Assembly: GCA_964397775.1 (NCBI GenBank)
Contig: CAYNKL010000119.1
Span: 1-12,682 of the forward strand
Direction of reading: 5' to 3'
Origin: an uncultured Rhodobacterales bacterium
Lineage (GTDB): Bacteria; Pseudomonadota; Alphaproteobacteria; Rhodobacterales; Rhodobacteraceae
DNA: 12,682 nt
Shown here: positions 61-12,682 of the stretch, in pieces
Numbering within the stretch: position 1 is the stretch's first letter
Layout of the letters: the number at the start of each line of letters is the position of its first letter
Notes under the pieces: model-generated
Told to the model about the DNA's origin: nothing
The model's database searches: none
The model's input: the letters and a program-made list of their open reading frames with translations, nothing else
Made by a program: the position numbers and the translations under genes

Positions 61-1287
61 ATGGGCAAGCTGACAGCCTTTATCGTGGCGGTGGTCGTCG
101 TCGTGGTCATCGCCCTCTCGTCGATGTTCGTGGTGGATGAGCGTGAAAAGGCGCTCGTGCTTCAGTTCGGTCAGATCCGGGCCGTGAAGGAAGAGCCGGG
201 GCTCGCCTTCAAGGTGCCGCTGATCCAGGAAGTCGTGCGCTACGACGACCGGATCCTGTCGCTGGATACCGAGACCATCGAGGTCACGCCTTCCGACGAC
301 CGGCGTCTCGTCGTCGACGCCTTCGCGCGCTACCGGATCGAGGACGTGGTCCAGTTCCGTCAGGCCGTCGGTGTCGGTGGCATCCGCAGCGCCGAGGACC
401 GTCTTCAGGGCATCCTCAACGCGCAGATCCGCGAGGTTCTGGGTGCCGATCAGGTGACGTCCGACCGTATCCTCTCCGAGGACCGCCGCGACCTGACCGT
501 CCGTATCCGCGACAATGCGCGGGACGAGGCGCAGGCGCTCGGCATCGACGTGGTGGACGTGCGTCTGAAGCAGACGAACCTTCCCTCGCAGAACCTCGAG
601 GCCACCTTTGCCCGGATGCGGGCCGAGCGTGAACGCGAGGCCGCCGACGAAATCGCCCGCGGTAACGAGGCGGCGCAGCGTGTGCGCGCGCTTGCCGACC
701 GGACCGTGGTCGAGACCCTGTCCGAGGCGGACCGGGAAGCCAACGTGATCCGCGGTGAGGCGGATGCGCAGACCAACCGGATCTATGCCGAGGCTTATGG
801 TCAGGACCCGGAGTTCTTCGCCTTCTACCGGTCGCTGCAGGCCTACGAGACGGCGATCCAGGGTGGGACCTCCTCGATGGTCATGACCCCGGACACCGAG
901 TTCTTCGAGTACTTCTCGAATGCGCAACCGGACGAGACCAAGGCGCTTGCCGAGGTGCCGGCGCAGCCGTCCTCGGGGCGCACGCCGGAAGAGACCGCGC
1001 GCGAGTTCGAGGAAGAGACCGGGACAAGCACCGGCGGTGCCGCAGAAGAGCTGCAGAACCTGAGCGAGACCGCGCTTCCCTCGGAAGACGAGGAAGACGA
1101 TGGCCAAGGCGCCAGCGGCTCGGGTGATAGCGGCGCGACGGACAGTCAGTCCGAGGGTGGCGATGCCACCTCGGGTGACGGTTCCGGCAACGCCGACCAG
1201 AGCACCGATGACGGTTCGGGTGAAACCGGGTCCTCCGACGACGGATCGTCGGCCCAGGAGGACGAAACCGGGTCCGCTTCGGAGTGA
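61..1287 (+). CDS. hflC: HflC, SPFH/band-7 protease modulator (FtsH regulator), with a ~120-aa acidic Ser/Gly/Asp/Glu/Thr-rich C-terminal extension
   Basis: N-terminal TM helix (FIVAVVVVVVIALSSMFVV) is followed by an SPFH domain colinear with E. coli HflC. Matching blocks include VDEREKALVLQFGQI, DVVDVRLKQTNLP, ARMRAEREREA, FFAFYRSLQAYE and MVMTPDTEFF. After about residue 285 the sequence becomes low complexity (EDEEDDGQGASGSGDSGATDSQSEGGDATSGDGSGNADQSTDDGSGETGSSDDGSS). Confidence 0.88.
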   Translation: MGKLTAFIVAVVVVVVIALSSMFVVDEREKALVLQFGQIRAVKEEPGLAFKVPLIQEVVRYDDRILSLDTETIEVTPSDDRRLVVDAFARYRIEDVVQFRQAVGVGGIRSAEDRLQGILNAQIREVLGADQVTSDRILSEDRRDLTVRIRDNARDEAQALGIDVVDVRLKQTNLPSQNLEATFARMRAEREREAADEIARGNEAAQRVRALADRTVVETLSEADREANVIRGEADAQTNRIYAEAYGQDPEFFAFYRSLQAYETAIQGGTSSMVMTPDTEFFEYFSNAQPDETKALAEVPAQPSSGRTPEETAREFEEETGTSTGGAAEELQNLSETALPSEDEEDDGQGASGSGDSGATDSQSEGGDATSGDGSGNADQSTDDGSGETGSSDDGSSAQEDETGSASE

Positions 1288-1472
1288 CCGGATCGGATCT
1301 GCTGACGGGGCTTGCCTTCGTCCTGATCGTGGAGGGGCTGGTGTACGCACTGGCCCCTTCGCTTGTGGAACGCCTGCTGGAAGCGCTGCGTGCAATGCCC
1401 TTGGAGACACGGCGGATGCTTGGGCTGCTGACGCTGACGACCGGCATTCTGCTGCTTTGGGTCGCGCGATAG
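1284..1472 (+). CDS. DUF2065 (YjeT-like) small two-TM membrane protein
   Basis: The GTG start at 1284-1286 overlaps the hflC TGA at 1285-1287 (GTGA). The 62-aa product has two hydrophobic segments and a VLIVEGLVYALAPSLV...MPLETRRMLGLLTLTTGILLLWVAR pattern matching the YjeT/DUF2065 architecture. Its position between hflC and degP is the conserved alphaproteobacterial arrangement. Confidence 0.72.
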   Translation: MTGSDLLTGLAFVLIVEGLVYALAPSLVERLLEALRAMPLETRRMLGLLTLTTGILLLWVAR

Positions 1473-1483
1473 GGGGCTCATTG

Positions 1484-1512
1484 GTCACGTGACGGCGATT
1501 TCCAGTCACATG
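1484..1512. promoter_or_regulatory. Candidate operator: perfect 10-bp palindrome GTCACGTGAC (1484-1493) plus a related half-site GTCACATG (1505-1512) 21 bp downstream, in the DUF2065-degP intergenic region
   Basis: Direct reading of the sequence. The palindrome has no loop, so it is more likely a dimeric protein-binding site than an RNA hairpin. It sits about 140 bp upstream of the degP start. Confidence 0.3.
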
Positions 1513-1628
1513 CGCTTGAGGCGGTGAAACCAGACCTTTGGTGTTGCCGCGCTGCACCTATCTCTGCGACACTACAGTGAGGCAGGCGGCCCTCTGCGTG
1601 GCCGGCTGGCAGAGACAAGGAGTGACCT

Positions 1629-3125
1629 GTGACATCTCAAGCATTGGCAATCCCACAAAAATCGGCGCATCCGCTGAGGCTTTTCTGGATTGCATCCCTC
1701 TCGATGATGCTGATCGTCGCGCAGTCGGTGATGGCATCGGCCCGCGGCGCGCCGGAAACCTTTGCGGATCTGGCCGATCAGGTGAGCCCTTCCGTGGTGA
1801 ACATCACCACCTCGACCACCGTGGCCGGGCGCGCAGGGCCGCAGGGCATCGTTCCCGAAGGTTCGCCTTTCGAGGATTTCTTTCGTGAATTCCGGGACCG
1901 CCAGGGTCCCAGCCAGCCCCGCCGCTCGTCGGCCCTGGGCTCGGGTTTCGTCATTTCCGAAGACGGCTACATCGTCACGAACAACCACGTGATCGAATCC
2001 GCCGACGAGATCACCATCGAGTTCTTCTCGGGCGAGGAGCTTCCGGCCGAGGTCGTGGGCACCGATCCCAACACCGACATCGCGCTGCTCAAGGTCGAGT
2101 CCGACGAGCCGCTGCCCTTCGTGCCCTTCGGTGACAGCGACACCGCGCGCGTCGGCGACTGGGTCATGGCCATGGGCAACCCGCTCGGCCAGGGCTTTTC
2201 GGTGAGCGCGGGTATCGTTTCGGCGCGCAACCGCGAGCTTTCGGGCACCTACGACGACTACATCCAGACCGACGCGGCCATCAACCGCGGCAACTCGGGC
2301 GGACCGCTGTTCAACATGGCCGGCGAAGTCATCGGCGTGAACACCGCGATCCTGTCGCCCAATGGCGGCTCGATCGGCATCGGTTTCTCAATGGCCTCGA
2401 ACGTTGTGACGCGGGTCGTTGACCAGCTGCAGGAATACGGCGAGACCCGCCGCGGCTGGCTTGGCGTCCGGATCCAGGACGTGACCGATGACGTGGCCGA
2501 GGCGCTTGACCTTGCCAGCTCGGAAGGCGCGCTGGTTTCCGACGTTCCCGAAGGTCCTGCCGCAGAGGCCGGGATGGAAGCCGGGGACGTGATCGTCAGC
2601 TTCGACGGCAAGAAGGTCACCGACACTCGCCAGCTTGTCCGGATCGTGGGCAACACGACGGTCGGCAAGACGGTGCGCGTCGTGGTCAATCGCGAGGGCG
2701 AGACACAGACCCTTCGCGTGACGCTTGGCCGCCGCGAGGACACCGAGACCGCCGTTCCGGCCTCGCAGGAAGTCATTCCGGATCAGCCGTCGAGCATGGA
2801 CCTGATGGGCCTGACGCTCGCGCCGCTCGACGACGAGATGCGCGAGAACCTCGAGCTTGGCGGAGACGTCGAGGGGCTGGCCGTGATGGATGTCGATCCC
2901 ACGTCCGAAGCCTATGAGAAGGGTCTGCGTGCCGGTGACGTGATCACTGAGGCGGGACAGGACACCGTGGCCAGCCTCGGCGACTTTGAAACCCGCCTGC
3001 AGGATGCACGCGACGCGGGTCGCAAGTCGATCCTGCTGCTGGTCCGCCGTGGCGGCGATCCCCGGTTCGTGGCTCTGAGCCTCGAACAGGAGCAGGAGCC
3101 GGAGGCGGCGCCTGCCGACGAGTAA
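1629..3125 (+). CDS. degP: Periplasmic serine endoprotease DegP/HtrA (Do) family, trypsin-like domain plus two PDZ domains
   Basis: GTG start at 1629 with a GGAG Shine-Dalgarno 7 nt upstream. Signal peptide LRLFWIASLSMMLIVAQSVMASA. Catalytic triad contexts TNNHVI (His), DIALLKV (Asp) and GNSGGPLFN (Ser). The first PDZ domain is around GWLGVRIQDV...GDVIVSFDGKKV and the second around GDVITEAG. Confidence 0.92.
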   Translation: MTSQALAIPQKSAHPLRLFWIASLSMMLIVAQSVMASARGAPETFADLADQVSPSVVNITTSTTVAGRAGPQGIVPEGSPFEDFFREFRDRQGPSQPRRSSALGSGFVISEDGYIVTNNHVIESADEITIEFFSGEELPAEVVGTDPNTDIALLKVESDEPLPFVPFGDSDTARVGDWVMAMGNPLGQGFSVSAGIVSARNRELSGTYDDYIQTDAAINRGNSGGPLFNMAGEVIGVNTAILSPNGGSIGIGFSMASNVVTRVVDQLQEYGETRRGWLGVRIQDVTDDVAEALDLASSEGALVSDVPEGPAAEAGMEAGDVIVSFDGKKVTDTRQLVRIVGNTTVGKTVRVVVNREGETQTLRVTLGRREDTETAVPASQEVIPDQPSSMDLMGLTLAPLDDEMRENLELGGDVEGLAVMDVDPTSEAYEKGLRAGDVITEAGQDTVASLGDFETRLQDARDAGRKSILLLVRRGGDPRFVALSLEQEQEPEAAPADE

Positions 3126-3147
3126 CGGAACCTTAAGTCCGGTTCGT

Positions 3148-3180
3148 GACGGGCGCCCTTCGGGGCGCCCGTTTCGTTTT
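3148..3180 (+). terminator. Rho-independent terminator after degP: GAC-GGGCGCCC-ttcg-GGGCGCCC followed by GTTTCGTTTT
   Basis: Perfect 8-bp GC stem (3151-3158 / 3163-3170) with a 4-nt loop and a T-rich tail at 3171-3180. It lies 23 nt past the TAA. Confidence 0.75.
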
Positions 3181-3185
3181 GGGGC

Positions 3186-3674
3186 TTAGCGGTCCGAGGG
3201 TGTGGGCAGGATGATTGGCATGAGGCCGAGATCGCGGGCCATCTCTGCCGAAAGACGGTCGCTGTCGAGACCGCGCGCCGACTGGTAGCCGCGGATGGCG
3301 GCACGGGTCGCGGTGTCGAGCTCACCCGTGATCGGGGCGTCGAACAGGCCACGCGCTGCCAGCGCCCGTTGCAGAGAGGCGATGAATTCGGGCGTGAGCG
3401 CGTCGGGGCAGGGGGCCTCGAAGCGGAGCTCGTCCCGTGGGCGCACGACGCGTGGCACCGGAGCGCGGCGATAGACAGGCGCCCGCAGCACGGTGCCATC
3501 CGCGGCGATCTCGGCGGGGACCACCTGAACCTCTCCCATGACCTGCTCGTAGATGGCGGGCTGCAGCGTCTCGCTGGCCCAGCAGCGCTCTGTCGCGCCG
3601 GTTTTCTGCGGCGCCGGCATGGCGCAGGCCGAGAGGACGCCGAGTGCTGCGATAGGGGCCAGGCGGCGGGGCAT
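3186..3674 (-). CDS. Lipoprotein with a putative peptidoglycan-binding domain (PG_binding_1-like C-terminus)
   Basis: Minus-strand ORF. The chosen ATG (complement of 3672-3674) gives MPRRLAPIAALGVLSAC, a signal peptide with the lipobox L-S-A-C. The C-terminal TRAAIRGYQSARGLDSDRLSAEMARDLGL resembles the peptidoglycan-binding repeat fold. The longer 199-aa reading has a basic, non-signal N-terminus and is less likely. Confidence 0.55.
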   Translation of the reverse strand: MPRRLAPIAALGVLSACAMPAPQKTGATERCWASETLQPAIYEQVMGEVQVVPAEIAADGTVLRAPVYRRAPVPRVVRPRDELRFEAPCPDALTPEFIASLQRALAARGLFDAPITGELDTATRAAIRGYQSARGLDSDRLSAEMARDLGLMPIILPTPSDR

Positions 3675-3799
3675 TGCGGGCGGTGCCTTTCTGCGGCTGT
3701 TGATGCGGTGTGGCAGCGACGTTAACGGGGTTTGCCGCGGTCGGAAAGAAAGTGCCGGGCGTGTGGCTGCCTTTGCAACCGGCACCGCGGCGGGGATAG

Positions 3800-4204
<405 letters not shown>

Positions 4205-4271
4205 ACATTTGGCCGGGGCGCCGCGCAATCCGTCGCGCCCCTGGGGCGCGGTCGCCCGCGGCGCGGGGCTG

Positions 4272-4952
4272 ATGCTGGGCCTGTGGCTTGCGGGGGCAGG
4301 GCCAGCGCTGGCCGACAGGATCCTCGCGGCGGAGTATGGCGATCCGACCGGGCGATATGCCCACGGCGTGCTTGGCGATGACCTGGAATGGGGATCGCTG
4401 AAGCTTCGGCTTGCGGACGGGAGCCTGAGGCGGTTCATTCTGGACGAGTCGCTGGTGTTCGAGGACCTCGCGCCGCGGCTTTACGATGTGGACGGGATGG
4501 CGGGCCCCGAAGTGATCGTGGTGGAAAGCCATGTGGACGCCGGGGCGCGGCTGGCCGTCTGGGGACCCGGGGGCCGTATCGCCGCGACGCCCTTTATCGG
4601 GCAGCCCTTCCGCTGGCTGGCGCCGGTTGCCGCGGGCGACCTGGATGGCGACGGCCGGGTCGAGATCGCCTACGTGGATCGACCGCATCTGGCGCGGATC
4701 CTGCGGATCTGGCGCTTCGAGGGCGGGACACTTCGCGAGATCGCCAGTTTCGAGGGTGTGAGCAATCATCGTATCGGCTGGGCGCGGATCGTCGGGGGCT
4801 TGCGTTCCTGTGAAGGTGGTCCGGAGTTGATCCTGCCGAGCGGCGACTGGCAGGACGTGCTGGCGCTGAGGCTGGTGGATGGGCAGGTCCGTGCGCGCAG
4901 GATCGGAGCCTATTCGGAGCGCGCACTGGATGCGGCGATGGCCTGCGATTAG
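4272..4952 (+). CDS. Secreted hypothetical protein with FG-GAP/VCBS-like Dx(D/N)GDG motifs
   Basis: The ATG at 4272 gives the signal-peptide-like MLGLWLAGAGPALA-DR. The protein contains AAGDLDGDGRVEIAYVD and YDVDGMAGPEVIVVESH, which resemble FG-GAP/VCBS calcium-binding repeat motifs. The start is uncertain because the ORF is open from 4164 and would overlap the ferredoxin gene. Confidence 0.5.
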   Translation: MLGLWLAGAGPALADRILAAEYGDPTGRYAHGVLGDDLEWGSLKLRLADGSLRRFILDESLVFEDLAPRLYDVDGMAGPEVIVVESHVDAGARLAVWGPGGRIAATPFIGQPFRWLAPVAAGDLDGDGRVEIAYVDRPHLARILRIWRFEGGTLREIASFEGVSNHRIGWARIVGGLRSCEGGPELILPSGDWQDVLALRLVDGQVRARRIGAYSERALDAAMACD

Positions 4953-5018
4953 GCGAGGTCGACCGTTCGGGCATCGTGGGGCTTTGCTTTCGCGCGCGAG
5001 GCACTTAAGCCTGCACCC

Positions 5019-5831
5019 ATGAAAATACTTTATCTTGGCGACGTGATGGGGCGTGCGGGGCGCGCGGCGGTGGCAGAGCGGCTTCCGGCGCTGCGCGAGG
5101 CCTGGAAGCTCGATTTCGTGATCGTGAACGGCGAGAATGCGTCGAACGGCAGCGGGTTGACGGCGGAGCACGCGGGCGGGCTGTTCGAGGCGGGTGCGGA
5201 CGTCGTGACGCTGGGCGATCACGCCTTCGACCAGAAGGACATGCTGACGCATATCGAGAAGGACAACCGGATCATCCGCCCGCTCAACTACGCCAAGCAG
5301 GCACCGGGCCGGGGCGCGGCGCTTTTCTCCGACCGGCGCGGGCGCAAGGTGCTGGTGGCGCAGGTGCTGGGCCAGGTCTTCATGAAGCGGGCCTTCGACG
5401 ACCCCTTTTCGGCCCTCGACGAGGTGCTGCGCCGGCATCCCATGGGCGGGCAGGCGCAGGCCATCGTGGTGGACATCCACTGCGAGGCGACCTCCGAGAA
5501 GATGGGCGTGGGGCATTTCTGCGACGGTCGGGCGAGCCTTGTGGTCGGCACGCATACGCATGTGCCGACGGCCGATGCGCAGATCCTGCCGGGCGGCACC
5601 GGGTTTCTCAGCGATGCGGGCATGTGCGGGGACTACGATTCTGTCATCGGCATGGAAAAGACCGAGCCGATGCGGCGCTTCGTGACCGGCATGGGCAAGA
5701 CCCGCTTCCAGCCGGCGCTGGGCGAGGCGACTCTGTGCGGCGTGCTGGTGGAAACCGACGACCGGACGGGCAAGGCCACGCGTATCGAGCCTGTCCGGCA
5801 GGGCGGCCGCCTGCAACAGGCCGGCGCGTGA
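5019..5831 (+). CDS. ymdB: YmdB-family metallophosphoesterase (TIGR00282; 2',3'-cyclic-nucleotide phosphodiesterase-like)
   Basis: MKILYLGDVMGRAGR...FVIVNGENASNGSGLT...VVTLGDHAFDQKD...IVVDIHCEATSEKMGVGHFCDGRASLVVGTHTHVPTAD is colinear with YmdB-family calcineurin-like phosphoesterases and includes the metal-binding D/H/N motifs. Confidence 0.85.
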   Translation: MKILYLGDVMGRAGRAAVAERLPALREAWKLDFVIVNGENASNGSGLTAEHAGGLFEAGADVVTLGDHAFDQKDMLTHIEKDNRIIRPLNYAKQAPGRGAALFSDRRGRKVLVAQVLGQVFMKRAFDDPFSALDEVLRRHPMGGQAQAIVVDIHCEATSEKMGVGHFCDGRASLVVGTHTHVPTADAQILPGGTGFLSDAGMCGDYDSVIGMEKTEPMRRFVTGMGKTRFQPALGEATLCGVLVETDDRTGKATRIEPVRQGGRLQQAGA

Positions 5832-6751
5832 AAGGCGTCTTGCCCTTTGCCGCCCTGATCCTGATCGGGGCGGCCTGGGGCGGGACGCAGCCGCTGGCCA
5901 AGGTCGCCGTCTCGGAAGGGTATCGACCCTTCGGTATCCTCGTCTGGCAGAACGCGCTTGTCGCCGTGATCCTGGCCGGGATCACGCTCCTGCGCGGGCG
6001 CAGCCTGCGCACCGACGGGGTGGCCCTGCGGCTCTACCTGCTTATTGCCGTGATCGGGACGGTCCTGCCGGGGCTCGCTTCCTACAGCGCGGCTGTGCAT
6101 CTTCCCTCGGGCGTGCTTTCGATGCTGCTGAGCTCGGTCCCGATGCTGGCCTTTCCCGTGGCGCTTGCGCTTGGCATCGACGTCTTCGGCTGGCGGAGGC
6201 TTGCGGGCCTCAGCCTGGGGCTAGCGGGTGTCGCGCTGCTGGTGATGCCGGAGACCGGAGCGGCCGGCGCGGTTCCGGTGGTCTGGGTCGCGGTCGCGCT
6301 GCTGGCCTCGGCCTGCTACGCGATCGAGGGCAACTATGTCGCGCGGTTCGGGACTGACGGGCTCGACCCCTTGCAGCTTCTCGCGGGTGCCTCGGTCGTG
6401 GGGATGTTGCTGAGCCTGCCACTCGCCATCGCCACCGGGCAATTCATTGATCCGCGGGGCGCCTGGACGCAGCCCGACACGGCCATCGTCGCGTCGTCCC
6501 TTCTGCATGCTGCGGCCTATTCCGGCTATGTCGGACTGGTCGGGTTGGCGGGATCGGTCTTTGCCGTGCAGGTGAGCTATTTCGTCACGCTGTTCGGCCT
6601 CGCCTGGGCGATGCTCTTCCTCGGCGAGGGATATTCGGGCTGGTTCTGGGGCGCTTTGGCGCTGATGTTGGCAGGGCTGGCGCTCGTGCAGCCGCGACCG
6701 GCTGCTTCGCTTGTGCCGGTCCGACCCATGGGGCAGGATGCCCGGCGATGA
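5828..6751 (+). CDS. DMT-superfamily (EamA-like) transporter, about 10 TM helices
   Basis: A GTG at 5828 overlaps the ymdB TGA at 5829-5831 (GTGA). Downstream of it the protein is uniformly hydrophobic with an EamA-like duplicated 5-TM pattern (LILIGAAWGGTQPLAK..., ...YFVTLFGLAWAMLFLGE). Upstream of 5828 the same ORF is Arg/Gly-rich and non-membrane, so it is probably not translated. Confidence 0.68.
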   Translation: MKGVLPFAALILIGAAWGGTQPLAKVAVSEGYRPFGILVWQNALVAVILAGITLLRGRSLRTDGVALRLYLLIAVIGTVLPGLASYSAAVHLPSGVLSMLLSSVPMLAFPVALALGIDVFGWRRLAGLSLGLAGVALLVMPETGAAGAVPVVWVAVALLASACYAIEGNYVARFGTDGLDPLQLLAGASVVGMLLSLPLAIATGQFIDPRGAWTQPDTAIVASSLLHAAAYSGYVGLVGLAGSVFAVQVSYFVTLFGLAWAMLFLGEGYSGWFWGALALMLAGLALVQPRPAASLVPVRPMGQDARR

Positions 6752-6773
6752 ACGAGGCATTGGTTTCCCCGAA

Positions 6774-8552
6774 ATGATATTTTTCGACCTGAGCCAGGCG
6801 GCGGCCGCGTATCTGACGCTCGCGGTGGTGGTTGGCATGTTCGTGCTGTTCGTGCGCGAGACCTATCCGACCGAGGTCGTCGCCATCGGCGGCGTCGCGG
6901 TGCTGCTGGCGCTCGGGGTGCTGCCCTACGATGCCGCGTTGGAGGTCCTGTCGAACCCGGCGCCCTGGACCATCGCCGCCATGTTCCTCGTGGTCGGGGC
7001 CCTCGTGCGGACCGGGGCACTGGAGAGCTTTTCGAGCTATGCGCAGGGGCAGGTGAGCAAGCAGCCCAAGGCAGCCGTGGTGGGTATCCTCGTCGTGGTG
7101 GTCGTTGCCTCGGCCTTCATGAACAACACGCCGGTCGTGGTGGTGATGCTGCCGATCTTCGTGCAGATTTCCCGCTCGCTCGGCGTGGCACCCTCCAAGC
7201 TGCTGATCCCGCTCAGCTATGCCTCGATCCTCGGCGGGACCGCGACACTGATCGGCACCTCGACCAACCTGCTTGTGGACGGCGTTGCCCGGACCCGCGG
7301 GCTCGAACCCTTCTCGATCTTCGAGGTGACGCCGCTGGCGCTGATCCTCATCCTCTGGGGCGGCATCTACATGGCGCTCTTCGGGCGCAAGCTGCTGCCG
7401 GAGCGGGATTCGATGGCTGGCATGCTCTCGGACCGGTCGCGGATGAAGTTCTTCACCGAGGCCGTGATCCCGCCGGATTCCAACCTCGTCGGACGCGAGG
7501 TGCTGGGCGTGCAACTGTTCAAGCGCGAGGGCGTGCGGCTGGTAGACGTTGTGAGGGGCGATGAATCGCTGCGTCGCAACCTCGACGGTGTCATTCTGGA
7601 GGTCGGCGACCGCGTCGTGCTGCGGACCCAGATGACCGAGCTGCTGAGCCTGCAGCGCAACAAGTCGCTGAAGCGCGTGGACCAGGTCTCCTCGAAGGAA
7701 ACCACCACGGTCGAGGCGCTGATCTCGCCGGGCTGCAAGATGGTCGGCCGGTCGCTGGGGGCGCTGCGTTTGCGGCGGCGCTACGGTGTCTACCCGCTGG
7801 CGGTGCACCGGCGGAACCAGAACATCGGTCGGCAGCTCGACGATCTCGTGGTGCGGGTCGGCGACACGCTGCTGCTCGAGGGCTCGCCCGAGGATATCCG
7901 GCGCCTGTCGGAAGAGATGGACATGGTCGACGTCTCGCGGCCCTCGGCCAAGGCCTTTCGCCGCAGCCATGCGCCTGTGGCGCTCGGCGCGCTTGCGGGC
8001 ATCGTGATCCTCTCCGCGCTCGGTGTGGCGCCGATCCTCGCGCTTGCGGTCATCGCGGTGGCGGTGGTGCTGCTGGCCCGTTGCGTCGATGCCGAGGAGG
8101 CTTTCGGTTTCGTCGAGGGCCAGCTGCTGGCGCTCATCTTCGCGATGCTGGCCATCGGGGCGGCGCTGGAAGCCTCGGGGGCGGTGGAGCTGCTGGTAGG
8201 GGCGGTGGCGCCGGTCATGGAGATGCTGCCGGGCTGGCTGCTGGTCTGGGCGGTCTATCTGCTGACCTCGCTTCTGACCGAGACGGTGAGCAACAACGCC
8301 GTGGCCGTGGTCGTTACACCGGTGGCGATCGGACTGGGACAGGCGCTTGGGCTCGACCCGCGCCCGCTGGTGGTGGCGGTCATGGTGGCGGCAAGCTGCA
8401 GCTTCGCCACGCCCATCGGCTATCAGACCAACACCATGGTCTATGGCCCGGGCGGCTACCGCTTCGCGGACTTCCTGCGGGTTGGCGTGCCGCTGAACAT
8501 CAGCGTCGGCCTTTTGGCATCGCTTCTGATTCCGCTGTTCTGGCCCCTCTGA
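6774..8552 (+). CDS. SLC13/CitMHS-family permease with two central TrkA_C (RCK_C) regulatory domains
   Basis: N- and C-terminal polytopic membrane halves ([26 protein letters not shown]..., ...[25 protein letters not shown]...) flank two repeats of the RCK_C pattern ([11 protein letters not shown]...[12 protein letters not shown]...[11 protein letters not shown] and [11 protein letters not shown]...[10 protein letters not shown]...[13 protein letters not shown]). The ATG at 6774 (MIFFDL) is preferred over the upstream ATG at 6711, which would overlap the DMT gene. Confidence 0.8.
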
Positions 8553-8572
8553 CGCCCCACGCGCGCACGCCC

Positions 8573-8602
8573 TTGGCAAGCGGTGGGGGCTTGGCCTATA
8601 TC
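8573..8602 (+). promoter_or_regulatory. Candidate sigma70-type promoter for yebC: TTGGCA (8573-8578), 18-nt spacer, TATATC (8597-8602)
   Basis: Matches the consensus at 5 of 6 positions in the -35 and 4 of 6 in the -10, within a 90-bp intergenic region. It would give a leader of about 35 nt to the ATG at 8642. This is pattern-based only. Confidence 0.3.
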
Positions 8603-8641
8603 ACGCCCGATCAGAAACAGGTGGACGAGCGAGAGGCAAGC

Positions 8642-9382
8642 ATGGCCGGGCACTCCAAGTGGGCGAACATTCAACACCGCAAGGGGCGGCAGGACGCGGC
8701 GCGCTCCAAGCTGTTTTCGAAGCTGTCGAAGGAGATCACGGTGGCCGCCAAGATGGGCGACCCCGATCCCGAGAAGAACCCGCGTCTGCGGCTGGCAGTG
8801 AAGGAAGCCAAGGCGAGCTCGGTCCCCAAGGACGTGATCGACCGCGCCATCAAGAAGTCGCAGGCCGGTGACGGCGAGAACTACGAAGAGATCCGCTACG
8901 AGGGCTACGGGCCCAACGGCGTGGCGGTGATCGTCGAGGCGATGACCGACAACCGCAACCGGACCGCGTCCAACGTGCGCTCGACCTTCTCCAAGAACGG
9001 CGGCAACATGGGCGAGAGCGGCTCGGTAGCCTTCATGTTCGAGCGCAAGGGCGAGATCATCTACCCTGCGTCTGCCGGGGATGCCGACGACATCATGATG
9101 GCGGCCATCGAGGCGGGCGCCGAGGATGTGGAAAGCAGCGAGGAAAGCCATGTGATCTGGTGCGCGGACACGGATCTCAACGAGGTCTCGACCGCGCTGG
9201 AAGAGCAGCTTGGCGAATCCGAGAGCACCAAGCTGACCTGGAAGCCCGCGAACACCACCGAGCTCGACCTCGAGGGGATGCAGTCGCTGATGAAGCTTGT
9301 CGACGCGCTCGAGGACGACGACGACGTGCAGCGCGTCACCACCAACTTCGAGGCCTCCGACGAGGTGATGGAACAGCTCTGA
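8642..9382 (+). CDS. yebC: YebC/PmpR-family DNA-binding transcriptional regulator
   Basis: ATG at 8642 with a GAGAGG Shine-Dalgarno 6 nt upstream. [39 protein letters not shown]...[11 protein letters not shown]... is the highly conserved YebC N-terminus. The product is 247 aa with an acidic C-terminus. The long upstream extension of the ORF (from 8081) is Gly/Arg-rich and not coding. Confidence 0.92.
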
Positions 9383-9408
9383 ACGCCGCGCCGGGTCAGA
9401 GATAGGGA

Positions 9409-9447
9409 CACCCCGCCGACCTGTCGTCGCGGGGTGTTTTATTGCGG
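9409..9447 (+). terminator. Rho-independent terminator after yebC: ACACCCCGC...GCGGGGTGT stem followed by TTTTATT
   Basis: 9-bp GC-rich stem (9409-9417 / 9430-9438) with an internal CGAC/GTCG sub-stem, then a T-rich tract at 9438-9444. Confidence 0.6.
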
Positions 9448-9455
9448 GGGAACGC

Positions 9456-10046
9456 ATGCAGGCAGTCTTGGCGGGCTTTGCGCTCGGGTTTTCGCTGATC
9501 CTGGCCATCGGGGCGCAGAATGCCTTTGTGCTGCGTCAGGGGCTGCGGCGGGCGCATGTGGGCACCGTCGTGATCGTCTGCGCGGTGTCGGACGCGGTGC
9601 TGATCGCGGCGGGGGTCGCGGGCTTTGGCGCGCTGGCGGAGGCGGTGCCAGGGCTGGAATGGGGGATGCGCATCTTCGGGGCGGCCTTCCTGGGCTGGTA
9701 CGGGGCGCGCACGCTCTGGGCCGCGTGGAAGGGCGGGCAGGTGATGGAGGCGGGCGCGGCGGCGCAGTCGCGGCGGTCTGCCGTGCTGACCTGCCTCGCG
9801 CTGACCTGGCTCAACCCGCATGTCTACCTCGATACGGTGGTGCTGCTGGGATCGGTCTCGTCCCGCTACCCGGCGCTGCCCTTCGCGCTGGGGGCGATGG
9901 CGGCCTCGGGAGTGTTCTTCACCGCGCTGGGCTACGGCGCGCGGGGGCTGGCGCCGCTCTTTGCGCGGCCGGCCGCCTGGAGGGCGCTGGACCTGGTCGT
10001 GGGGCTGACCATGTGGGCCATCGCCGCGAGCCTGATCTGGGGGTGA
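9456..10046 (+). CDS. argO: LysE/ArgO-family amino-acid exporter (arginine/lysine exporter)
   Basis: The product is 196 aa with 6 TM segments. ILAIGAQNAFVLRQGLRRA and LTWLNPHVYLDTVVLLGSVS closely parallel the E. coli ArgO motifs GPQNAFVMNQGIRRQ and TWLNPHVYLDTFVVLGSLG. Confidence 0.85.
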   Translation: MQAVLAGFALGFSLILAIGAQNAFVLRQGLRRAHVGTVVIVCAVSDAVLIAAGVAGFGALAEAVPGLEWGMRIFGAAFLGWYGARTLWAAWKGGQVMEAGAAAQSRRSAVLTCLALTWLNPHVYLDTVVLLGSVSSRYPALPFALGAMAASGVFFTALGYGARGLAPLFARPAAWRALDLVVGLTMWAIAASLIWG

Positions 10047-10052
10047 GCGGCG

Positions 10053-10075
10053 ATGTCCCGGGCCGGGACATTTTT
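10053..10075 (+). terminator. Rho-independent terminator after argO: ATGTCCCG-ggc-CGGGACAT followed by TTTTT
   Basis: 8-bp stem (10053-10060 / 10064-10071), 3-nt loop and a T5 tract at 10071-10075, starting 7 nt after the TGA at 10044-10046. Confidence 0.65.
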
Positions 10076-10205
10076 CGATGGTATATGAATCAATGGGTTA
10101 GTGGTTAGCGTTAACCGGGACTTAGGAATGTTCCGCGGCAGCCCCTGCTTTGCAGCGGGTGGCCGATGTGGTTTTGTGGCCCCTGATGTAGGGGAGGTCT
10201 TGGGG

Positions 10206-12494
10206 ATGTGGTCGGAAGTCGAGGCATGGTTGCGCACGGGGCCGGGAGCCGCGATCGCCTCGCTTGTCACACTTCTGGCATTTGCCGGGATCGATGCCCG
10301 GTGGGGCTGGAACGTGATCCGGAGGTTGGCCGGCAGGGGCGCCCCCGCCACCGTGCAAAAGGTCGAGGTCGTCACGCCGGAGCCGCAGAAGACAGGCTCG
10401 AAATTCCCGAAGATCCTCCCGCCGCCCCGCGACCGGACCCTTGTTGGGCGGGAAAAAGAACTGGGGCGCATCCGCAGCCTGCTGGCCAGCCGCCACGGGG
10501 TGCAGATCACCGGCCAGACTGGCGTGGCGCTGAGCGCCGAGGGCGGGCGGGGCAAGACGGCGCTGGCCAAGGAATACGCCTGGCGTTTTCGCGACGCATA
10601 CGATGGCGGTTACTGGCTTGATGCCCAGACACGGGCGAACCTGCTGGCAGATCTGGCGCGTCTGGGTGAGCGCGCCTTTGACATGCCGGTGCGGGATTCG
10701 GTCACGGAGGCCGATGGACGTGCGGTGCTGGCGCGGATCGCGGACAGCGGGGCGCGATGGTTGCTGGTCTATGACAACGCCGACAGTTACGACGAGATCC
10801 CCGATGCGAAGCAGGGCGAGGTGCGCGACCTGATCTGCCAGGCGCCGGACGTCGATGTGATCGTGACCAGCCGCAGGGCGCTGGGCTGGGACGGCTACGG
10901 GCGCATCGACCTTGAGGTGCTGGACACGGATAGCCCCGAGGGCGGCGCGGTGGACCTGCTGTTGCAGGAGGCGGGTCTTGCGTTTCCCACGCCCGAGGAC
11001 AGGCAGGCCGCCTGGCTCGTGGCTCAGGAGCTGGGCGGTCTGCCGCTGGCGCTGGTGCTGGCCGGGGCGCTGGTGCGGGTAGACGGATGGAGCTTTGCAC
11101 AGCTGCGCGACGAAGTTTCTGAGGTGCTGACCCGCGCGCCCGAAAGCCCGCTTTACCCAAACAGCGTGGCGGGGGCGGTGCGGCTGACCTATGGGCGGCT
11201 GGGCGCGGATGCGCAGGCGCTGGCGGATCTTTGCGCCTGGCTGGCGCCAGAGGGGCTGACGGAGGCGCTGTTTGCGGGGGCGGTGAAAGACCCGTCTTGG
11301 CCAGCCTATTCCGATGATGCCGTCCCCGAGGTGCGGGCGGTTCTGGACGACCCGGCGCGTCTGCGCGCGGGGTTGCAGGAGTTGCGGCGCTGGTCGGTGC
11401 TGTCCGGTGAGGGCGGGATGCACCGGTTGACGCAAGCGGTTCTGCGGGCGGCTCAGACGGAGGGGGACTGTGACTTTGCCAGTGCGCGCGGGGCGGCGGC
11501 GGTTTTGGCGGCGCAGTTTCCGGGGGGGAGCGAGAATTCGCCGGTGCTTCAAGAAAACTGGGAGGTCTGTCGTACTCTGGTACCGCATGTCCGGTCGCTT
11601 TGGGGCACTTCGGTAGAGCCTTGGCGCGTGCGGTGGCAGCAGCCAGGATGGGCTGCCATGGACTATCTTTTGAGCCAGGGGGCGGTCTTCCTGTCGCGGC
11701 AAGAGGATCGTGAGGGGGCGATTGTCTTGGGCCGTCCCGCGCTTGAGTTGAAAGAGATGCGTCTCGGCGAAGAACACCGCGATATCCCGCTAGCGCTGGG
11801 CAACTTGGCTCTCGATCTAGCCGAGGTTGGGGCGCTGGCGGAGGCGCGGGCCAAGATTACACGCGCAGTGGCACTCGATGAGGTGCATCGGCGGCGCGAG
11901 GCGCGCGGCCAAATGGCGGGGACCTACATGCAGCAGGCCAAAATTGCGTTCCGTAGCATGGAGGCCGGTGGCGAGATCGCGGAGGGCGCGGAGGTCGAGG
12001 CTGAGGCCGCGCTGGAAGGAGCCGGAGAGATCTGGGAAACGCTGTTTGGCGCTGAGAGCGAAGAGATGGCGCTGGTCTGGAACGAGAGGGGCTATTTGAG
12101 GCAGCTGCAGGGAAGACAGCGACTGCAATGGCAGGCTTCGAGCCGCGCGCTTGAGATCACCCGGGCGTTGGATGATCCGGACCAAACAGTCCTGGCGACC
12201 TATGCCACGAATGTTGGCTCGACGGCGCTGGAGCTGGGGCGGGCCAATGACGCGCGAGGACCTTTGAAGGAGGCTTACGATCTGGCGCGCGAGGTCTATT
12301 TCGATCTTCCGGATCATTCGCATTACGTTGGATGTTGCAAAAAGCTGACCCTCTGCCTGCTGGTTCTGGCGCGCAAGGGTGGCCGCGGCGCGCGGCGTGA
12401 GGCCGAGGCGCTTGCTGCGCGGCATGGGTTGGATCTGGCGGAGATGGAGGCTGTTGCGGAGAGGTTCCCGTTGGAGCCGGTGGCGGAGGCGTAG
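10206..12494 (+). CDS. STAND NTPase with NB-ARC domain and C-terminal TPR-like repeats; the short N-terminus has a single hydrophobic helix and no recognisable effector domain
   Basis: The ATG at 10206 has a GGGGAGG Shine-Dalgarno 8 nt upstream; the ORF is open from the GTG at 10101. The NB-ARC motif set is complete. LVGREKELGRIRSLL precedes the P-loop SAEGGRGKTALA (about 10536-10571). The Walker B motif is WLLVYDNAD (about 10758-10784) and the RNBS-B-like motif is VIVTSRR. The GLPL motif is ELGGLPLALVLAG (about 11029-11067) and the MHD-like motif is GGMHRLTQAVLR (about 11412-11447). The C-terminal ~330 aa is helical and repeat-like, TPR-like (ALGNLALDLAEVGALAEA, ALEITRAL, AYDLAREVY). The N-terminus MWSEVEAWLRTGPGAAIASLVTLLAFAGIDARWGWNVIRRLAGR has one TM-length hydrophobic stretch. 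Confidence 0.8.
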   Translation: MWSEVEAWLRTGPGAAIASLVTLLAFAGIDARWGWNVIRRLAGRGAPATVQKVEVVTPEPQKTGSKFPKILPPPRDRTLVGREKELGRIRSLLASRHGVQITGQTGVALSAEGGRGKTALAKEYAWRFRDAYDGGYWLDAQTRANLLADLARLGERAFDMPVRDSVTEADGRAVLARIADSGARWLLVYDNADSYDEIPDAKQGEVRDLICQAPDVDVIVTSRRALGWDGYGRIDLEVLDTDSPEGGAVDLLLQEAGLAFPTPEDRQAAWLVAQELGGLPLALVLAGALVRVDGWSFAQLRDEVSEVLTRAPESPLYPNSVAGAVRLTYGRLGADAQALADLCAWLAPEGLTEALFAGAVKDPSWPAYSDDAVPEVRAVLDDPARLRAGLQELRRWSVLSGEGGMHRLTQAVLRAAQTEGDCDFASARGAAAVLAAQFPGGSENSPVLQENWEVCRTLVPHVRSLWGTSVEPWRVRWQQPGWAAMDYLLSQGAVFLSRQEDREGAIVLGRPALELKEMRLGEEHRDIPLALGNLALDLAEVGALAEARAKITRAVALDEVHRRREARGQMAGTYMQQAKIAFRSMEAGGEIAEGAEVEAEAALEGAGEIWETLFGAESEEMALVWNERGYLRQLQGRQRLQWQASSRALEITRALDDPDQTVLATYATNVGSTALELGRANDARGPLKEAYDLAREVYFDLPDHSHYVGCCKKLTLCLLVLARKGGRGARREAEALAARHGLDLAEMEAVAERFPLEPVAEA

Positions 12495-12539
12495 TGGGCG
12501 GCGGGCGCGTCTTGATGGCTGCGAGCCCCCTCACCCTAT

Positions 12540-12562
12540 CCCTCTCCCCCGAGGGGAGAGGG
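12540..12562. repeat. Extragenic palindrome CCCTCTCCCC-cga-GGGGAGAGGG (perfect 10-bp stem, 3-nt loop), REP-like element
   Basis: Direct reading of the sequence. It starts 46 nt after the STAND stop, is preceded by CCCTCACCCTAT and has no T-tract after it, so it is not a canonical intrinsic terminator. Confidence 0.5.
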
Positions 12563-12657
12563 GACCTGTTGCGCTGGCTTTGGCGGGGGCGCTGTCTCTC
12601 CAGTGGTCCGGGCCTGTCTTCCGGGCGTGCCCGGTCTCCGACCCTTCCTCGCTGAAA

Positions 12658-12676
12658 TCATGCCTCCGGCATGATG
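12658..12676. repeat. Palindrome ATCATGCC-tcc-GGCATGAT (8-bp stem) at the window edge, overlapping a possible ATG-ATG start of the next gene
   Basis: Direct reading of the sequence. The window ends before any context can be evaluated. Confidence 0.3.
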
Positions 12677-12682
12677 TCCGGG

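What the first reader, a model, noticed from the sequence alone, without database searches (positions are those of the whole stretch)
11500..12494. Sharp drop in third-position GC in the STAND gene, especially the C-terminal TPR sensor region, relative to all flanking genes
Neighbouring genes (degP, yebC, argO, the transporters) use almost exclusively G/C-ending codons. From about 11520 onward the STAND gene is full of A/T-ending codons, for example aat, ctt, caa, gaa, tgt, cgt, act, gta, cat, tat, ttg, aaa, cta, gtt, att and aca. The 5' part (10206-10500) is also noticeably enriched in such codons. This compositional discontinuity points to foreign origin. Modular replacement of the sensor domain is also possible, as expected for arms-race-driven defence sensors, or very low expression.
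Basis: seen in the sequence. Interest (0 to 1): 0.55.

Follow-up and report, generated by a model that had tools for sequence, protein, structure and literature searches.

The report
Mosaic, swappable NLR-like sensor gene
The dip in G/C-ending codons is real but modest, and it marks a swappable sensor (TPR) module of an NLR-like ATPase gene that differs drastically between otherwise almost identical marine Roseobacter-group genomes.

Summary
The GC3 drop is real but moderate. GC3 is 0.70 in 11523-12368, 0.81 in the rest of the gene and 0.85 in the nine neighbouring genes. The claimed 5' enrichment (10206-10500) is not there (GC3 0.83).

Comparison with related contigs explains the dip better than composition does. 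Two metagenome contigs (L004, L005) are collinear with the window. They are about 96% identical in DNA up to base 10183, with flanking proteins 88-100% identical. Their gene at this site is only 54% identical in protein.

The closest allele (L168) shares the nucleotide-binding half: 95% aa identity and dS 0.19. Its TPR half is 43% identical, with synonymous sites saturated. The low-GC3 stretch coincides with this diverged block. L004 and L005 show a second, independent TPR swap.

The gene is an AP-ATPase/NB-ARC-type STAND NTPase with kinesin-light-chain-like TPRs and a short hydrophobic N-terminus, which is a TIR domain in some relatives. It is patchily distributed but always sits next to yebC. 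Low GC3 in the TPR part is family-wide. It therefore marks the module, not one recent event.

A defence function is inferred, not shown: there are no PADLOC hits. I rate it a new member of a known kind, of moderate interest.

The parts
10047..10183 (+). Conserved intergenic leader between argO and the STAND gene. The left junction of the variable block lies at its 3' end.
   Evidence: About 96% identity to L004/L005 runs ungapped up to 10183 and then collapses. Positions 10111-10177 are 87% identical to L168.
10184..10205 (+). Start of the allele-specific block. It includes the GGGGAGG ribosome-binding site 8 nt before the ATG at 10206.
   Evidence: Read from the sequence and from alignment A1.
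10206..12494 (+). STAND NTPase gene of 762 aa: short N-terminal module, AP-ATPase/NB-ARC-type NBD-HD-WHD, and C-terminal TPR array. The longer ORF from GTG 10101 runs through the conserved non-coding leader and is probably not the true start.
   Evidence: ORF list. Pfam TPR_12 scores 38.2 bits, above its cut-off, and AAA_16 is weak. The AF2 model has pLDDT 89. Foldseek finds 6mfv (STAND-TPR), Apaf-1, NRC2/3/4, CED-4 and KLC TPR. Homologues start with MT(D/E)F... after the leader.
10206..10343 (+). Variable N-terminal module, residues 1-46, with a hydrophobic helix at about residues 14-29. This is the effector position; relatives P0012 and P0017 carry a TIR domain here.
   Evidence: Only 11-40% identical to any allele. 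AF2 predicts helices 2-11, 14-26 and 31-41 at low confidence. TIR_2 is listed for relatives.
10344..11030 (+). NBD cassette 'a', residues 47-275: Walker A GGRGKT at 10542-10559, Walker B WLLVYDN at 10758-10778, and TSR at 10866-10874 in the position of the family's T-x-R (TTR in most members).
   Evidence: 95% aa and 94% nt identity to L168, dS 0.19, but only 35% aa identity to the near-conspecific L004/L005. Invariant G114, G116, K117, T221 and near-invariant D190, N191, R223. TSR read from the window translation. GC3 0.834.
11031..11522 (+). NBD cassette 'b', residues 276-439: GGLPLAL motif at about 11028-11048 (it straddles the cassette a/b boundary), helical and winged-helix domains, and an MHD-like MHR at 11418-11426.
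   Evidence: 80% aa identity to L168 and 70% to L004/L005. Invariant L276, L279, P280, L281, A282, L283 and H406; motif position read from the sequence. GC3 0.793.
11154..11243 (+). Island conserved in all alleles, encoding SVAGAVRLTYGRLGADAQALADLCAWLAPEGL. It is a candidate crossover tract between the NBD and TPR cassettes.
   Evidence: At least 0.9 nt identity to L168, L004 and L005 in sliding windows. The longest exact matches to L004/L005 (31-46 nt) lie here.
11523..12368 (+). TPR sensor cassette, residues 440-721.
   Evidence: GC3 0.702. Not alignable to L168 by blastn. 43% aa identity to L168 with pS 0.78 (saturated), and 61% to L004. TPR_12/TPR_10 hits and kinesin-light-chain-type TPR matches.
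12369..12494 (+). Conserved 3' end of the gene, residues 722-762 plus the stop codon. This is the right junction of the variable block.
   Evidence: 82-85% nt identity to L168 and L005. GC3 returns to 0.805.
12495..12682 (.). Conserved downstream intergenic DNA with a G+C-rich palindromic REP-like element: CTCTCCCC-CGA-GGGGAGAG at about 12542-12560. The window ends here.
   Evidence: 91% identical to L004 and 93% to L168. L004 carries a second copy of the element.

Best explanation
The window carries one allele of a hypervariable, mosaic NLR-like gene. The gene occupies a fixed chromosomal site downstream of yebC-argO in a Roseobacter-group bacterium.

The gene is built from cassettes: an N-terminal module, NBD part a, NBD part b, and a TPR array. 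Short conserved tracts separate them: the 5' leader up to 10183, the island 11154-11243, and the 3' end from 12369. Homologous recombination at or near these tracts exchanges cassettes between diverged allelic lineages. As a result, genomes that are about 96% identical in the flanks carry genes only about 54% identical, and alleles with nearly the same NBD carry unrelated TPR arrays.

The low-GC3 stretch is the TPR cassette. TPR cassettes of this family have lower GC3 than NBD cassettes and than the host background in almost every genome examined. The dip is therefore a property of the exchanged module pool. It would reflect long separate history and turnover, with GC-favouring forces less effective. 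It is not a mark of one recent import.

Inferred function: the protein is a STAND switch. The TPR array binds a ligand, the AP-ATPase domain exchanges nucleotide and oligomerises, and the clustered N-terminal module executes the response. That module is a hydrophobic helix here and a TIR domain in relatives. The most likely role is phage or other non-self sensing.

Shown: architecture, mosaicism, allelic replacement, patchy distribution, and the family-wide GC3 dip. Inferred: recombination at the conserved tracts, the cause of the low GC3, and the defence role.
For: Allelic replacement:
- Window 128-10183 is 96.4% identical to L004 without gaps, then similarity collapses.
- Flanking proteins are 88-100% identical to L004/L005 (most 96-100%, the unannotated 262-aa ORF 91% and 88%), with dS 0.06-0.15 against L004. 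The STAND protein is 54% identical.

Mosaicism:
- Against L168, aa identity by segment is 40 / 95 / 80 / 43 / 68% (N, NBDa, NBDb, TPR, C-end). Against L004 it is 27 / 35 / 70 / 61 / 68%.
- dS is 0.19 in NBDa, against saturated synonymous sites in the TPR part.
- The left switch against L168 is abrupt, at about 10341.
- Neighbour-joining trees for the three parts are incongruent.

Second swap:
- Between L004 and L005, NBD dS is at background and TPR dS is 0.6-1.4, with 65% aa identity. P0006 was seen on 8 contigs and P0009 on 5.

GC3:
- GC3 follows the recombination-defined segments: 0.80 / 0.83 / 0.79 / 0.70 / 0.81.
- The TPR part is lowest in six of seven homologue loci, and the gene is below the flank mean in all seven.
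- The dip persists at conserved residues: 0.68 in the TPR part against 0.81 in the NBD.

Distribution:
- Only 5 of about 74 Roseobacter-group loci with both yebC and LysE carry the gene, plus one weak partial hit.
- It is always adjacent to yebC or yebC-LysE.

Architecture:
- Walker A, Walker B, T-x-R, GLPL and MHD-like His motifs are conserved.
- The AF2 model has pLDDT 89.
- Foldseek hits are 6mfv, Apaf-1, plant NRC/ZAR1 and CED-4.
- TIR replaces the N-terminus in P0012 and P0017.
Against: - The exact window allele (P0001) is known from this single MAG contig only, so its particular mosaic has no independent confirmation.
- No donor of the TPR cassette was found. The best match is 61% (L004), and 52-54% in a dedicated search.
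- TPR GC3 (0.57-0.77 in most alleles) is lower than the background of every sampled host (0.76-0.87). Simple exchange among these hosts therefore does not explain the dip.
- L171 shows no dip.
- The blind within-gene block test is only marginal (14/200).
- No PADLOC model matches the window protein or its close alleles.
- The neighbours are housekeeping genes, not a defence island.
- dN/dS in the TPR part is 0.2-0.3, so there is no gene-wide sign of positive selection.
- The trees are NJ without bootstrap.
Confidence: 0.7

Rival explanations
1. There is no module exchange. The TPR region simply evolves fast in place under relaxed or diversifying selection. Weak codon selection in a poorly expressed gene lets AT-biased mutation lower GC3.
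For: - The GC3 dip is family-wide and lies below every host background.
- GC3 correlates weakly with residue conservation (Spearman 0.16-0.22).
- dN/dS is higher in STAND (0.2-0.5) than in the flanks (0.01-0.1).
- One lineage carries an in-frame stop codon, so the gene is dispensable.
Against: - In-place acceleration raises dN, not dS. Yet TPR dS is 5-10 times the flank dS between L004 and L005, and saturated between the window and L168, while NBD dS stays at background.
- The identity switches are abrupt.
- Domain trees are incongruent.
- NBDa of the near-conspecifics is only 35% identical.
- Expression level cannot differ between two halves of one transcript (inference).
- Conserved TPR columns still have GC3 0.68.
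Confidence: 0.12
2. The window's mosaic is a metagenome-assembly chimera. The assembler switched between two co-occurring alleles at a conserved tract, so the GC3 step marks a join between strains rather than a real gene.
For: - The contig is from a MAG, and the exact protein is on record only once.
- Conserved tracts exist where paths could switch.
Against: - Exact matches between known alleles in the conserved island are at most 46 nt. That is shorter than the final k-mers of common assemblers (my own knowledge).
- The reading frame is intact, and the AF2 model is confident across the junction (pLDDT 88-97 around residues 430-450).
- The same kind of mosaic is seen between L004 and L005, whose alleles recur on 8 and 5 contigs from separate assemblies.
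Confidence: 0.08
3. The whole gene is a recently acquired foreign island from a lower-GC donor, inserted next to argO.
For: - Distribution among relatives is patchy.
- Gene GC3 is 0.77 against 0.85 for the neighbours.
- Its position relative to LysE differs between genera: after it here, before it in L001, L002 and L006.
Against: - Homologues lie beside yebC in at least eight lineages, including near-conspecifics.
- There is no tRNA and no flanking direct or inverted repeats, and one search shows no ORF suggestive of a mobile-element gene; no dedicated integrase search was run.
- NBD GC3 (0.79-0.83) is close to the host value.
- The leader and the 3' flank are conserved with the other alleles.
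Confidence: 0.08

Closest known systems
AP-ATPase / NB-ARC clade STAND NTPases with C-terminal TPRs (e.g. PDB 6mfv archaeal STAND-TPR protein; Apaf-1, CED-4, plant NLRs such as NRC2/3/4 and ZAR1)
   Same: - Walker A, Walker B, T-x-R, GLPL and MHD-like motifs are conserved.
- The NBD-HD-WHD fold, followed by a helical repeat sensor, gives Foldseek probability 1.0.
- The layout is tripartite: effector, NTPase, repeats.
   Different: - Sequence identity is only 13-18%.
- Pfam NB-ARC does not reach threshold for this protein.
- The N-terminal module is a stretch of about 46 residues with one hydrophobic helix, not a CARD, CC or TIR domain.
- No oligomer or ligand is known.
FxSxx-COOH system TPR protein (NCBIfam NF040586; the TIR-AP-ATPase-TPR component described by Kaur et al. 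2020, PMC7159879)
   Same: It is the best family-level HMM match, at 205 bits over residues 73-735. Distant relatives are annotated with this name and carry TIR.
   Different: - The score is below the 300-bit cut-off.
- No FxSxx peptide, radical-SAM or vWA-MoxR genes lie nearby. The neighbours are yebC, argO and, in L004, cysS.
- There is no TIR domain in this protein.
Bacterial antiviral STAND systems (Avs/AVAST; bNACHT, Kibby et al., bioRxiv 10.1101/2022.07.19.500537)
   Same: - Single-gene tripartite STAND NTPase with a repeat-type sensor and a swappable N-terminal effector position.
- Patchy distribution and high allelic diversity.
   Different: - No PADLOC model matches.
- Walker B is LLVYDNAD. 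It lacks the NACHT D[GAS]hDE signature quoted in that paper.
- The gene is not in a defence island.
- No anti-phage activity has been tested.
Hypervariable repeat domains of fungal and plant NLRs (Dyrka et al. 2014, PMC4986451)
   Same: - Sensor repeats are far more variable than the NBD.
- The N-terminal, NBD and repeat modules are combined in different ways.
- Allelic lineages are much older than the surrounding genome.
   Different: - Here the variation is exchange of the whole TPR array between diverged alleles at one bacterial locus.
- Internal repeat-unit shuffling is not seen: there are no near-identical internal repeats.
- No site-wise positive selection has been shown.

Membership tests
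STAND NTPase, AP-ATPase/NB-ARC clade | P-loop Walker A (GxxGxGK[ST]) and Walker B (hhhhD[DN]) | tested here: met
   GGRGKT at 10542-10559 and WLLVYDN at 10758-10778. G114, G116 and K117 are invariant, and D190 and N191 nearly invariant, in 29 sequences.
STAND NTPase, AP-ATPase/NB-ARC clade | GLPL motif and MHD-type histidine in the winged-helix domain | tested here: met
   GGLPLAL, with L276, L279, P280, L281, A282 and L283 invariant. MHR, with H406 invariant and R407 nearly invariant. The third residue is R, not D.
STAND NTPase, AP-ATPase/NB-ARC clade | Pfam NB-ARC (PF00931) match at the gathering threshold | tested here: not met
   Only AAA_16 (22.8 bits against a cut-off of 32.6) and nSTAND_NTPase5 (14.6 against 34) are reported for the window protein. 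Some homologues have weak precomputed PF00931 hits.
STAND NTPase, AP-ATPase/NB-ARC clade | NBD-HD-WHD fold similar to Apaf-1, CED-4 and plant NLRs | tested here: met
   The AF2 model has pLDDT 89 and pTM 0.83. Foldseek against the PDB gives 6mfv E 9.5e-9, Apaf-1 2e-8, NRC2/3 about 1e-7 to 1e-6, and CED-4 1e-6.
STAND NTPase, AP-ATPase/NB-ARC clade | C-terminal superstructure-forming repeats (TPR) | tested here: met
   TPR_12 scores 38.2 bits, above the 30.1 cut-off. There are kinesin-light-chain TPR matches by sequence and by fold. The model is all-helical over residues 449-751.
FxSxx-COOH system TPR protein (NF040586) | HMM score at or above the curated cut-off of 300 bits | tested here: not met
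   205.2 bits.
FxSxx-COOH system TPR protein (NF040586) | Neighbourhood with an FxSxx precursor peptide, radical-SAM maturase and vWA-MoxR genes | tested here: not met
   The window's genes are HflC-like, DegP, YmdB, EamA, an SLC13-type transporter, YebC and ArgO. In L004 the downstream genes are a 92-aa ORF, cysS and leuA.
Known anti-phage STAND systems (Avs1-5 and others in PADLOC-DB v2) | Match to a PADLOC protein model | tested here: not met
   0 families for the window protein at E <= 1. 0 for P0002 and P0006. The TIR-bearing relatives match only TIR-type models.
Known anti-phage STAND systems (Avs1-5 and others in PADLOC-DB v2) | Protection against phage that depends on the NTPase and the effector | not testable with these tools
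   This needs an experiment.
bNACHT (bacterial NACHT NLR-related proteins) | D[GAS]hDE signature after Walker B | tested here: not met
   The sequence is VYDNADSYDE. The residue after the Walker B Asp is N. The signature is as quoted.
Mobile genomic island / recent HGT insertion | Integrase or transposase, tRNA or attachment-site repeats, or target-site duplication at the borders | tested here: not met
   No tRNA. No flanking direct or inverted repeats beyond chance-size matches. No ORF suggestive of an integrase or transposase appears in the list, though the window's other ORFs were not scanned against Pfam for this. The window ends 188 bases after the gene, so the right side is only partly visible.

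The most novel reading that the evidence does not exclude
This locus may be a bacterial counterpart of plant R-gene or fungal het/NLR polymorphism. It would be a single-copy NLR-like gene kept at a fixed core-genome site, beside yebC, across genera as an ancient trans-species polymorphism. Effector, NBD and TPR-sensor cassettes would be reshuffled at short conserved junction sequences, generating new recognition specificities in marine Roseobacter populations. The low GC3 of the sensor cassette would then be the compositional trace of this separate, fast-turnover module pool.
Probability: 0.3. Interest if true: 0.65.

Novelty: new member of a known kind. Interest (0 to 1): 0.5.

Why it matters
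If the reading is right, a small compositional anomaly has pointed to a natural case of sensor-domain swapping in a bacterial NLR-like protein. The flanks are almost identical and the junctions are well defined. That gives ready-made chimeras (same NBD, different TPR) for testing what the TPR array recognises and how specificity evolves in bacterial STAND receptors. It also shows that an immune-type gene can be highly polymorphic inside a housekeeping neighbourhood, outside classical defence islands. For annotation practice, it shows that a GC3 dip alone does not prove recent foreign origin. Here the dip is a family-wide property of one module.

Tried and rejected
- **Donor search:** a search with the TPR cassette alone found nothing closer than 52-54%. 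No donor was identified.
- **Conspecific genomes:** an ArgO-anchored scan of species-representative genomes found no conspecific; the best match is 82%, Mameliella alba. The same scan of JGI metagenomes also found none. The population-level survey therefore rests on three contigs plus L168.
- **Exact window protein:** a look-up found no other contig.
- **Other scans:** PADLOC found nothing. Rfam found nothing in the window. The promoter/terminator scan found nothing around the gene. The repeat and tRNA scans showed no mobile-element borders.
- **Sequence search of solved structures:** it gave only kinesin-light-chain TPR hits. The fold search was needed to place the NBD.
- **First change-point script:** it timed out. 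The vectorised rerun is.
- **Longer ORF from GTG 10101, or ATG 10128:** I considered it as the true start, because the frame stays open through the leader in three alleles. I rejected it because homologues begin after the leader, and only ATG 10206 has a good Shine-Dalgarno sequence.
- **Per-site conservation as the cause of the dip:** rejected.
- **yebC-LysE gaps of 2.3-2.9 kb in other genera as hidden divergent STAND genes:** rejected. In L009, L015, L023, L040, L050 and L060 the gap ORFs read like a LysR-type regulator, with other unrelated ORFs beside it. That reading is by eye from the translations, not from a family search. L008, L033 and L034 showed only other or doubtful ORFs.
Full report
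**The observation**

I defined ten genes in the window and computed base composition by codon position.
- The nine genes other than the STAND gene have GC3 of 0.79-0.91, pooled 0.851. The STAND ORF has 0.766.
- Within it, 11499-12491 has GC3 0.716 (237/331). Fisher p = 4e-9 against the neighbours.
- When each codon's expectation is taken from the neighbours' synonymous usage, z = -6.3.
- No 200- or 331-codon window in any neighbour is as low.
- The shift affects most amino acids.

So the drop exists, but it is a step of about 0.11-0.15, not a collapse. Total GC only falls from about 0.70 to 0.63. A blind scan for the best low-GC3 block inside the gene gives 11433-12455, with 14 of 200 permutations doing as well.

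**What the gene is**

The likely start is ATG 10206, preceded by GGGGAGG. The longer ORF from 10101 runs through a conserved non-coding leader. The 762-aa product has these features:
- Walker A GGRGKT, Walker B LLVYDN, a T-x-R (TSR here, TTR in most relatives), GGLPLAL and an MHD-like MHR. The key residues are invariant or nearly so in 29 relatives.
- Pfam finds TPR_12 above threshold but only sub-threshold P-loop families.
- NCBIfam's FxSxx_TPR model scores 205 bits, below its cut-off of 300.
- An AlphaFold model built on the family alignment is confident (pLDDT 89, pTM 0.83).
- By Foldseek the model matches the archaeal STAND-TPR protein 6mfv, Apaf-1, plant NRC/ZAR1 resistosome subunits, CED-4 and kinesin-light-chain TPR domains.

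The N-terminal 46 residues hold a hydrophobic helix, modelled at low confidence. Relatives P0012 and P0017 have a TIR domain in that position. PADLOC has no model matching this protein or its close alleles.

**The decisive evidence: related loci**

Homologues at 47-69% identity occur in Roseobacter-group bacteria (Puniceibacterium, Thalassococcus, Tateyamaria and several MAGs) and in one Salinarimonadaceae MAG. Where context is available, they lie directly after yebC, or after yebC-LysE.

Two contigs, L004 (ENA) and L005 (Tara), are collinear with the whole window.
- DNA identity is 96.4% and 95.7%. The match is ungapped to L004, with one gap to L005, from the start of each locus to window base 10183.
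- Flanking proteins are 88-100% identical; most are 96-100%, and the unannotated 262-aa ORF is the lowest at 91% and 88%.
- Flank dS is 0.06-0.15 against L004.
- At 10184, about 22 bases before the start codon, similarity collapses.
- The STAND proteins are only 54% identical.
- Similarity recovers near the 3' end of the gene and is 91% in the 188 bases after the stop.

So the coding region is an allelic replacement between genomes at about the species boundary.

**Mosaic structure**

The closest allele, P0002 (contigs L168-L170, from three sequencing runs), is 69% identical overall. That figure hides a mosaic.
- Window 10344-11522 aligns to L168 at 88.6% without gaps. Positions 11523-12367 do not align by blastn. 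Positions 12368-12615 align at 87%.
- Amino-acid identity by segment:

| Segment (residues) | vs L168 | vs L004 |
|---|---|---|
| N-terminus (1-46) | 40% | 27% |
| NBD part a (47-275) | 95% | 35% |
| NBD part b (276-439) | 80% | 70% |
| TPR (440-721) | 43% | 61% |
| C-end (722-762) | 68% | 68% |

- Against L168, dS is 0.19 in NBD part a, while synonymous sites are saturated in the TPR part (pS 0.78).
- Sliding identity shows an abrupt switch at about 10341. There is an island conserved in all alleles at 11154-11243, and identity recovers at about 12370.
- Neighbour-joining trees differ by part. In NBD part a, window+L168 lie far from L004+L005. In NBD part b the two pairs are sisters. In the TPR part the window lies with L004/L005, and L168 is outside them (no bootstrap).

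GC3 by these externally defined segments is 0.80, 0.83, 0.79, 0.70 and 0.81. The TPR segment against the rest of the gene gives p = 4.6e-4.

**A second, independent swap**

L004 and L005 have flank dS of 0.10-0.28 and an NBD at the same level. From about residue 357 onward, their TPR parts are only about 65% identical, with dS 0.6-1.4. Elevated dS rules out simple in-place protein acceleration. These alleles recur on 8 and 5 contigs respectively, so they are not assembly accidents.

**What the GC3 dip means**

- In all seven homologue loci with context, the STAND gene's GC3 is below the mean of its neighbours, by 0.03-0.13. In six of seven the TPR part is the lowest.
- L168 shows the same pattern (NBD 0.83, TPR 0.62). 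L171 is an exception.
- Across ten alleles, GC3 rises slightly with residue conservation. Even so, conserved TPR columns have GC3 0.68 against 0.81 for conserved NBD columns.

The dip is thus a regional, family-wide property of the TPR module. It is not a fingerprint of one recent import into this strain. It cannot be an expression effect either, because both halves lie in one transcript (inference).

TPR GC3 is below every sampled host background. Exchange among these hosts alone therefore does not explain it. Two possibilities remain:
- the module pool includes lower-GC hosts that were not sampled;
- frequent turnover weakens GC-favouring selection or biased gene conversion against AT-biased mutation. 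This rests on established population genetics, not on a test here.

I could not separate the two.

**Distribution**

In an ArgO-anchored survey, about 74 Roseobacter-group loci carry both yebC (at least 80% identical) and LysE.
- Only L001, L002, L004, L005 and L006 carry the gene, plus a weak partial hit in L034.
- Puniceibacterium antarcticum (L015) lacks it, although P. sediminis has it.
- In L009, L015, L023, L040, L050 and L060 the yebC-LysE gap holds an ORF that reads like a LysR-type regulator, by eye from the translations, plus unrelated ORFs. Other gaps held only other or doubtful ORFs.
- One lineage (L172/L173) has an in-frame TAG in the gene.

The gene is thus a dispensable accessory gene at a conserved site. 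No tRNA or border repeats were found, and the ORF list shows nothing suggestive of an integrase.

**Mechanism**

Shown:
- the architecture;
- allelic replacement bounded by conserved tracts;
- cassette-level mosaicism in two independent allele pairs;
- patchy distribution;
- the family-wide low GC3 of the TPR module.

Inferred:
- Recombination uses the conserved leader, the 11154-11243 island and the 3' end as crossover tracts.
- The protein works as a STAND switch: the TPR array binds a ligand, the NTPase oligomerises, and the N-terminal helix (TIR in relatives) executes the response.
- The diversity reflects a conflict, most likely with phages.

This is how Avs and bNACHT proteins and eukaryotic NLRs work. 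Membership in those bacterial families was tested and not met.

**Caveats**

- The window allele is known from one MAG contig only, so an assembly chimera cannot be fully excluded. Shared exact matches between known alleles are at most 46 nt, and the model is confident across the junction.
- The window ends 188 bases after the gene, so return to 96% identity on the right side cannot be shown.
- No genome-wide GC3 distribution of the source organism was available.

**Verdict**

The 'modular replacement' reading is supported by independent evidence. 'Recent foreign island' and 'low expression' are not supported. This is a new member of a known kind: a hypervariable NLR-like STAND sensor. Its locus structure is tidy enough to be experimentally useful. 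Interest is moderate.

Noticed in passing
window 12527-12570; L004 about 12290-12330 and a second copy about 12460-12500; L005 and L168 downstream regions: A G+C-rich palindromic REP-like element (CCCTCACCCTATCCCTCTCCCCCGAGGGGAGAGGGGACC) lies just after the STAND stop codon in all alleles. L004 has two copies. It may terminate transcription or serve as a recombination tract.
   Followed up: partly
window 10100-10183: The leader between argO and the STAND gene is conserved among the window, L004 and L005, and 87% identical in L168. It can form a hairpin (GCCCCTGC-TTT-GCAGCGGGT). The STAND reading frame stays open through it from ATG 10128 in three different alleles, although homologues start downstream. 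No Rfam match.
   Followed up: partly
L001, L002, L003, L006, L171, L172 (locus coordinates about 8000-12300): The STAND gene is immediately downstream of yebC even where the genes upstream of yebC differ. In L171 these are a B12-binding radical-SAM gene and a V4R gene. In L006 a PhoX gene lies between yebC and the STAND gene. It is unclear whether this linkage to yebC is functional or just ancestral.
   Followed up: no
L172 9986-9988 and L173 (same allele): An in-frame TAG splits the STAND gene into ORFs of 363 and 453 aa, at a position aligned with window residue D302 (FARLR*ELA against FAQLRDEVS). It is seen in contigs from two different samples. It may be a pseudogene or a split gene.
   Followed up: partly
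proteins P0012 and P0017 (relatives, not in the window): These relatives carry an N-terminal TIR domain in place of the hydrophobic N-terminus. P0012's TPR part groups with P0008 while its NBD part a groups elsewhere, so effector and sensor shuffling extends across the family.
   Followed up: partly
window 61-1287: The Band-7/HflC-like protein ends in a long acidic, Ser/Gly/Asp/Glu-rich low-complexity tail of about 110 residues. This is unusual for HflC-type proteins.
   Followed up: no
L005 12891-14434 against L004 13083-14540: cysS downstream of the STAND gene is called as 463 + 50 aa in L005 and 485 aa in L004. The best tblastn identity is only 79%, although the DNA is about 94% identical. 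That suggests a frameshift or a further variable patch next to the STAND locus.
   Followed up: no
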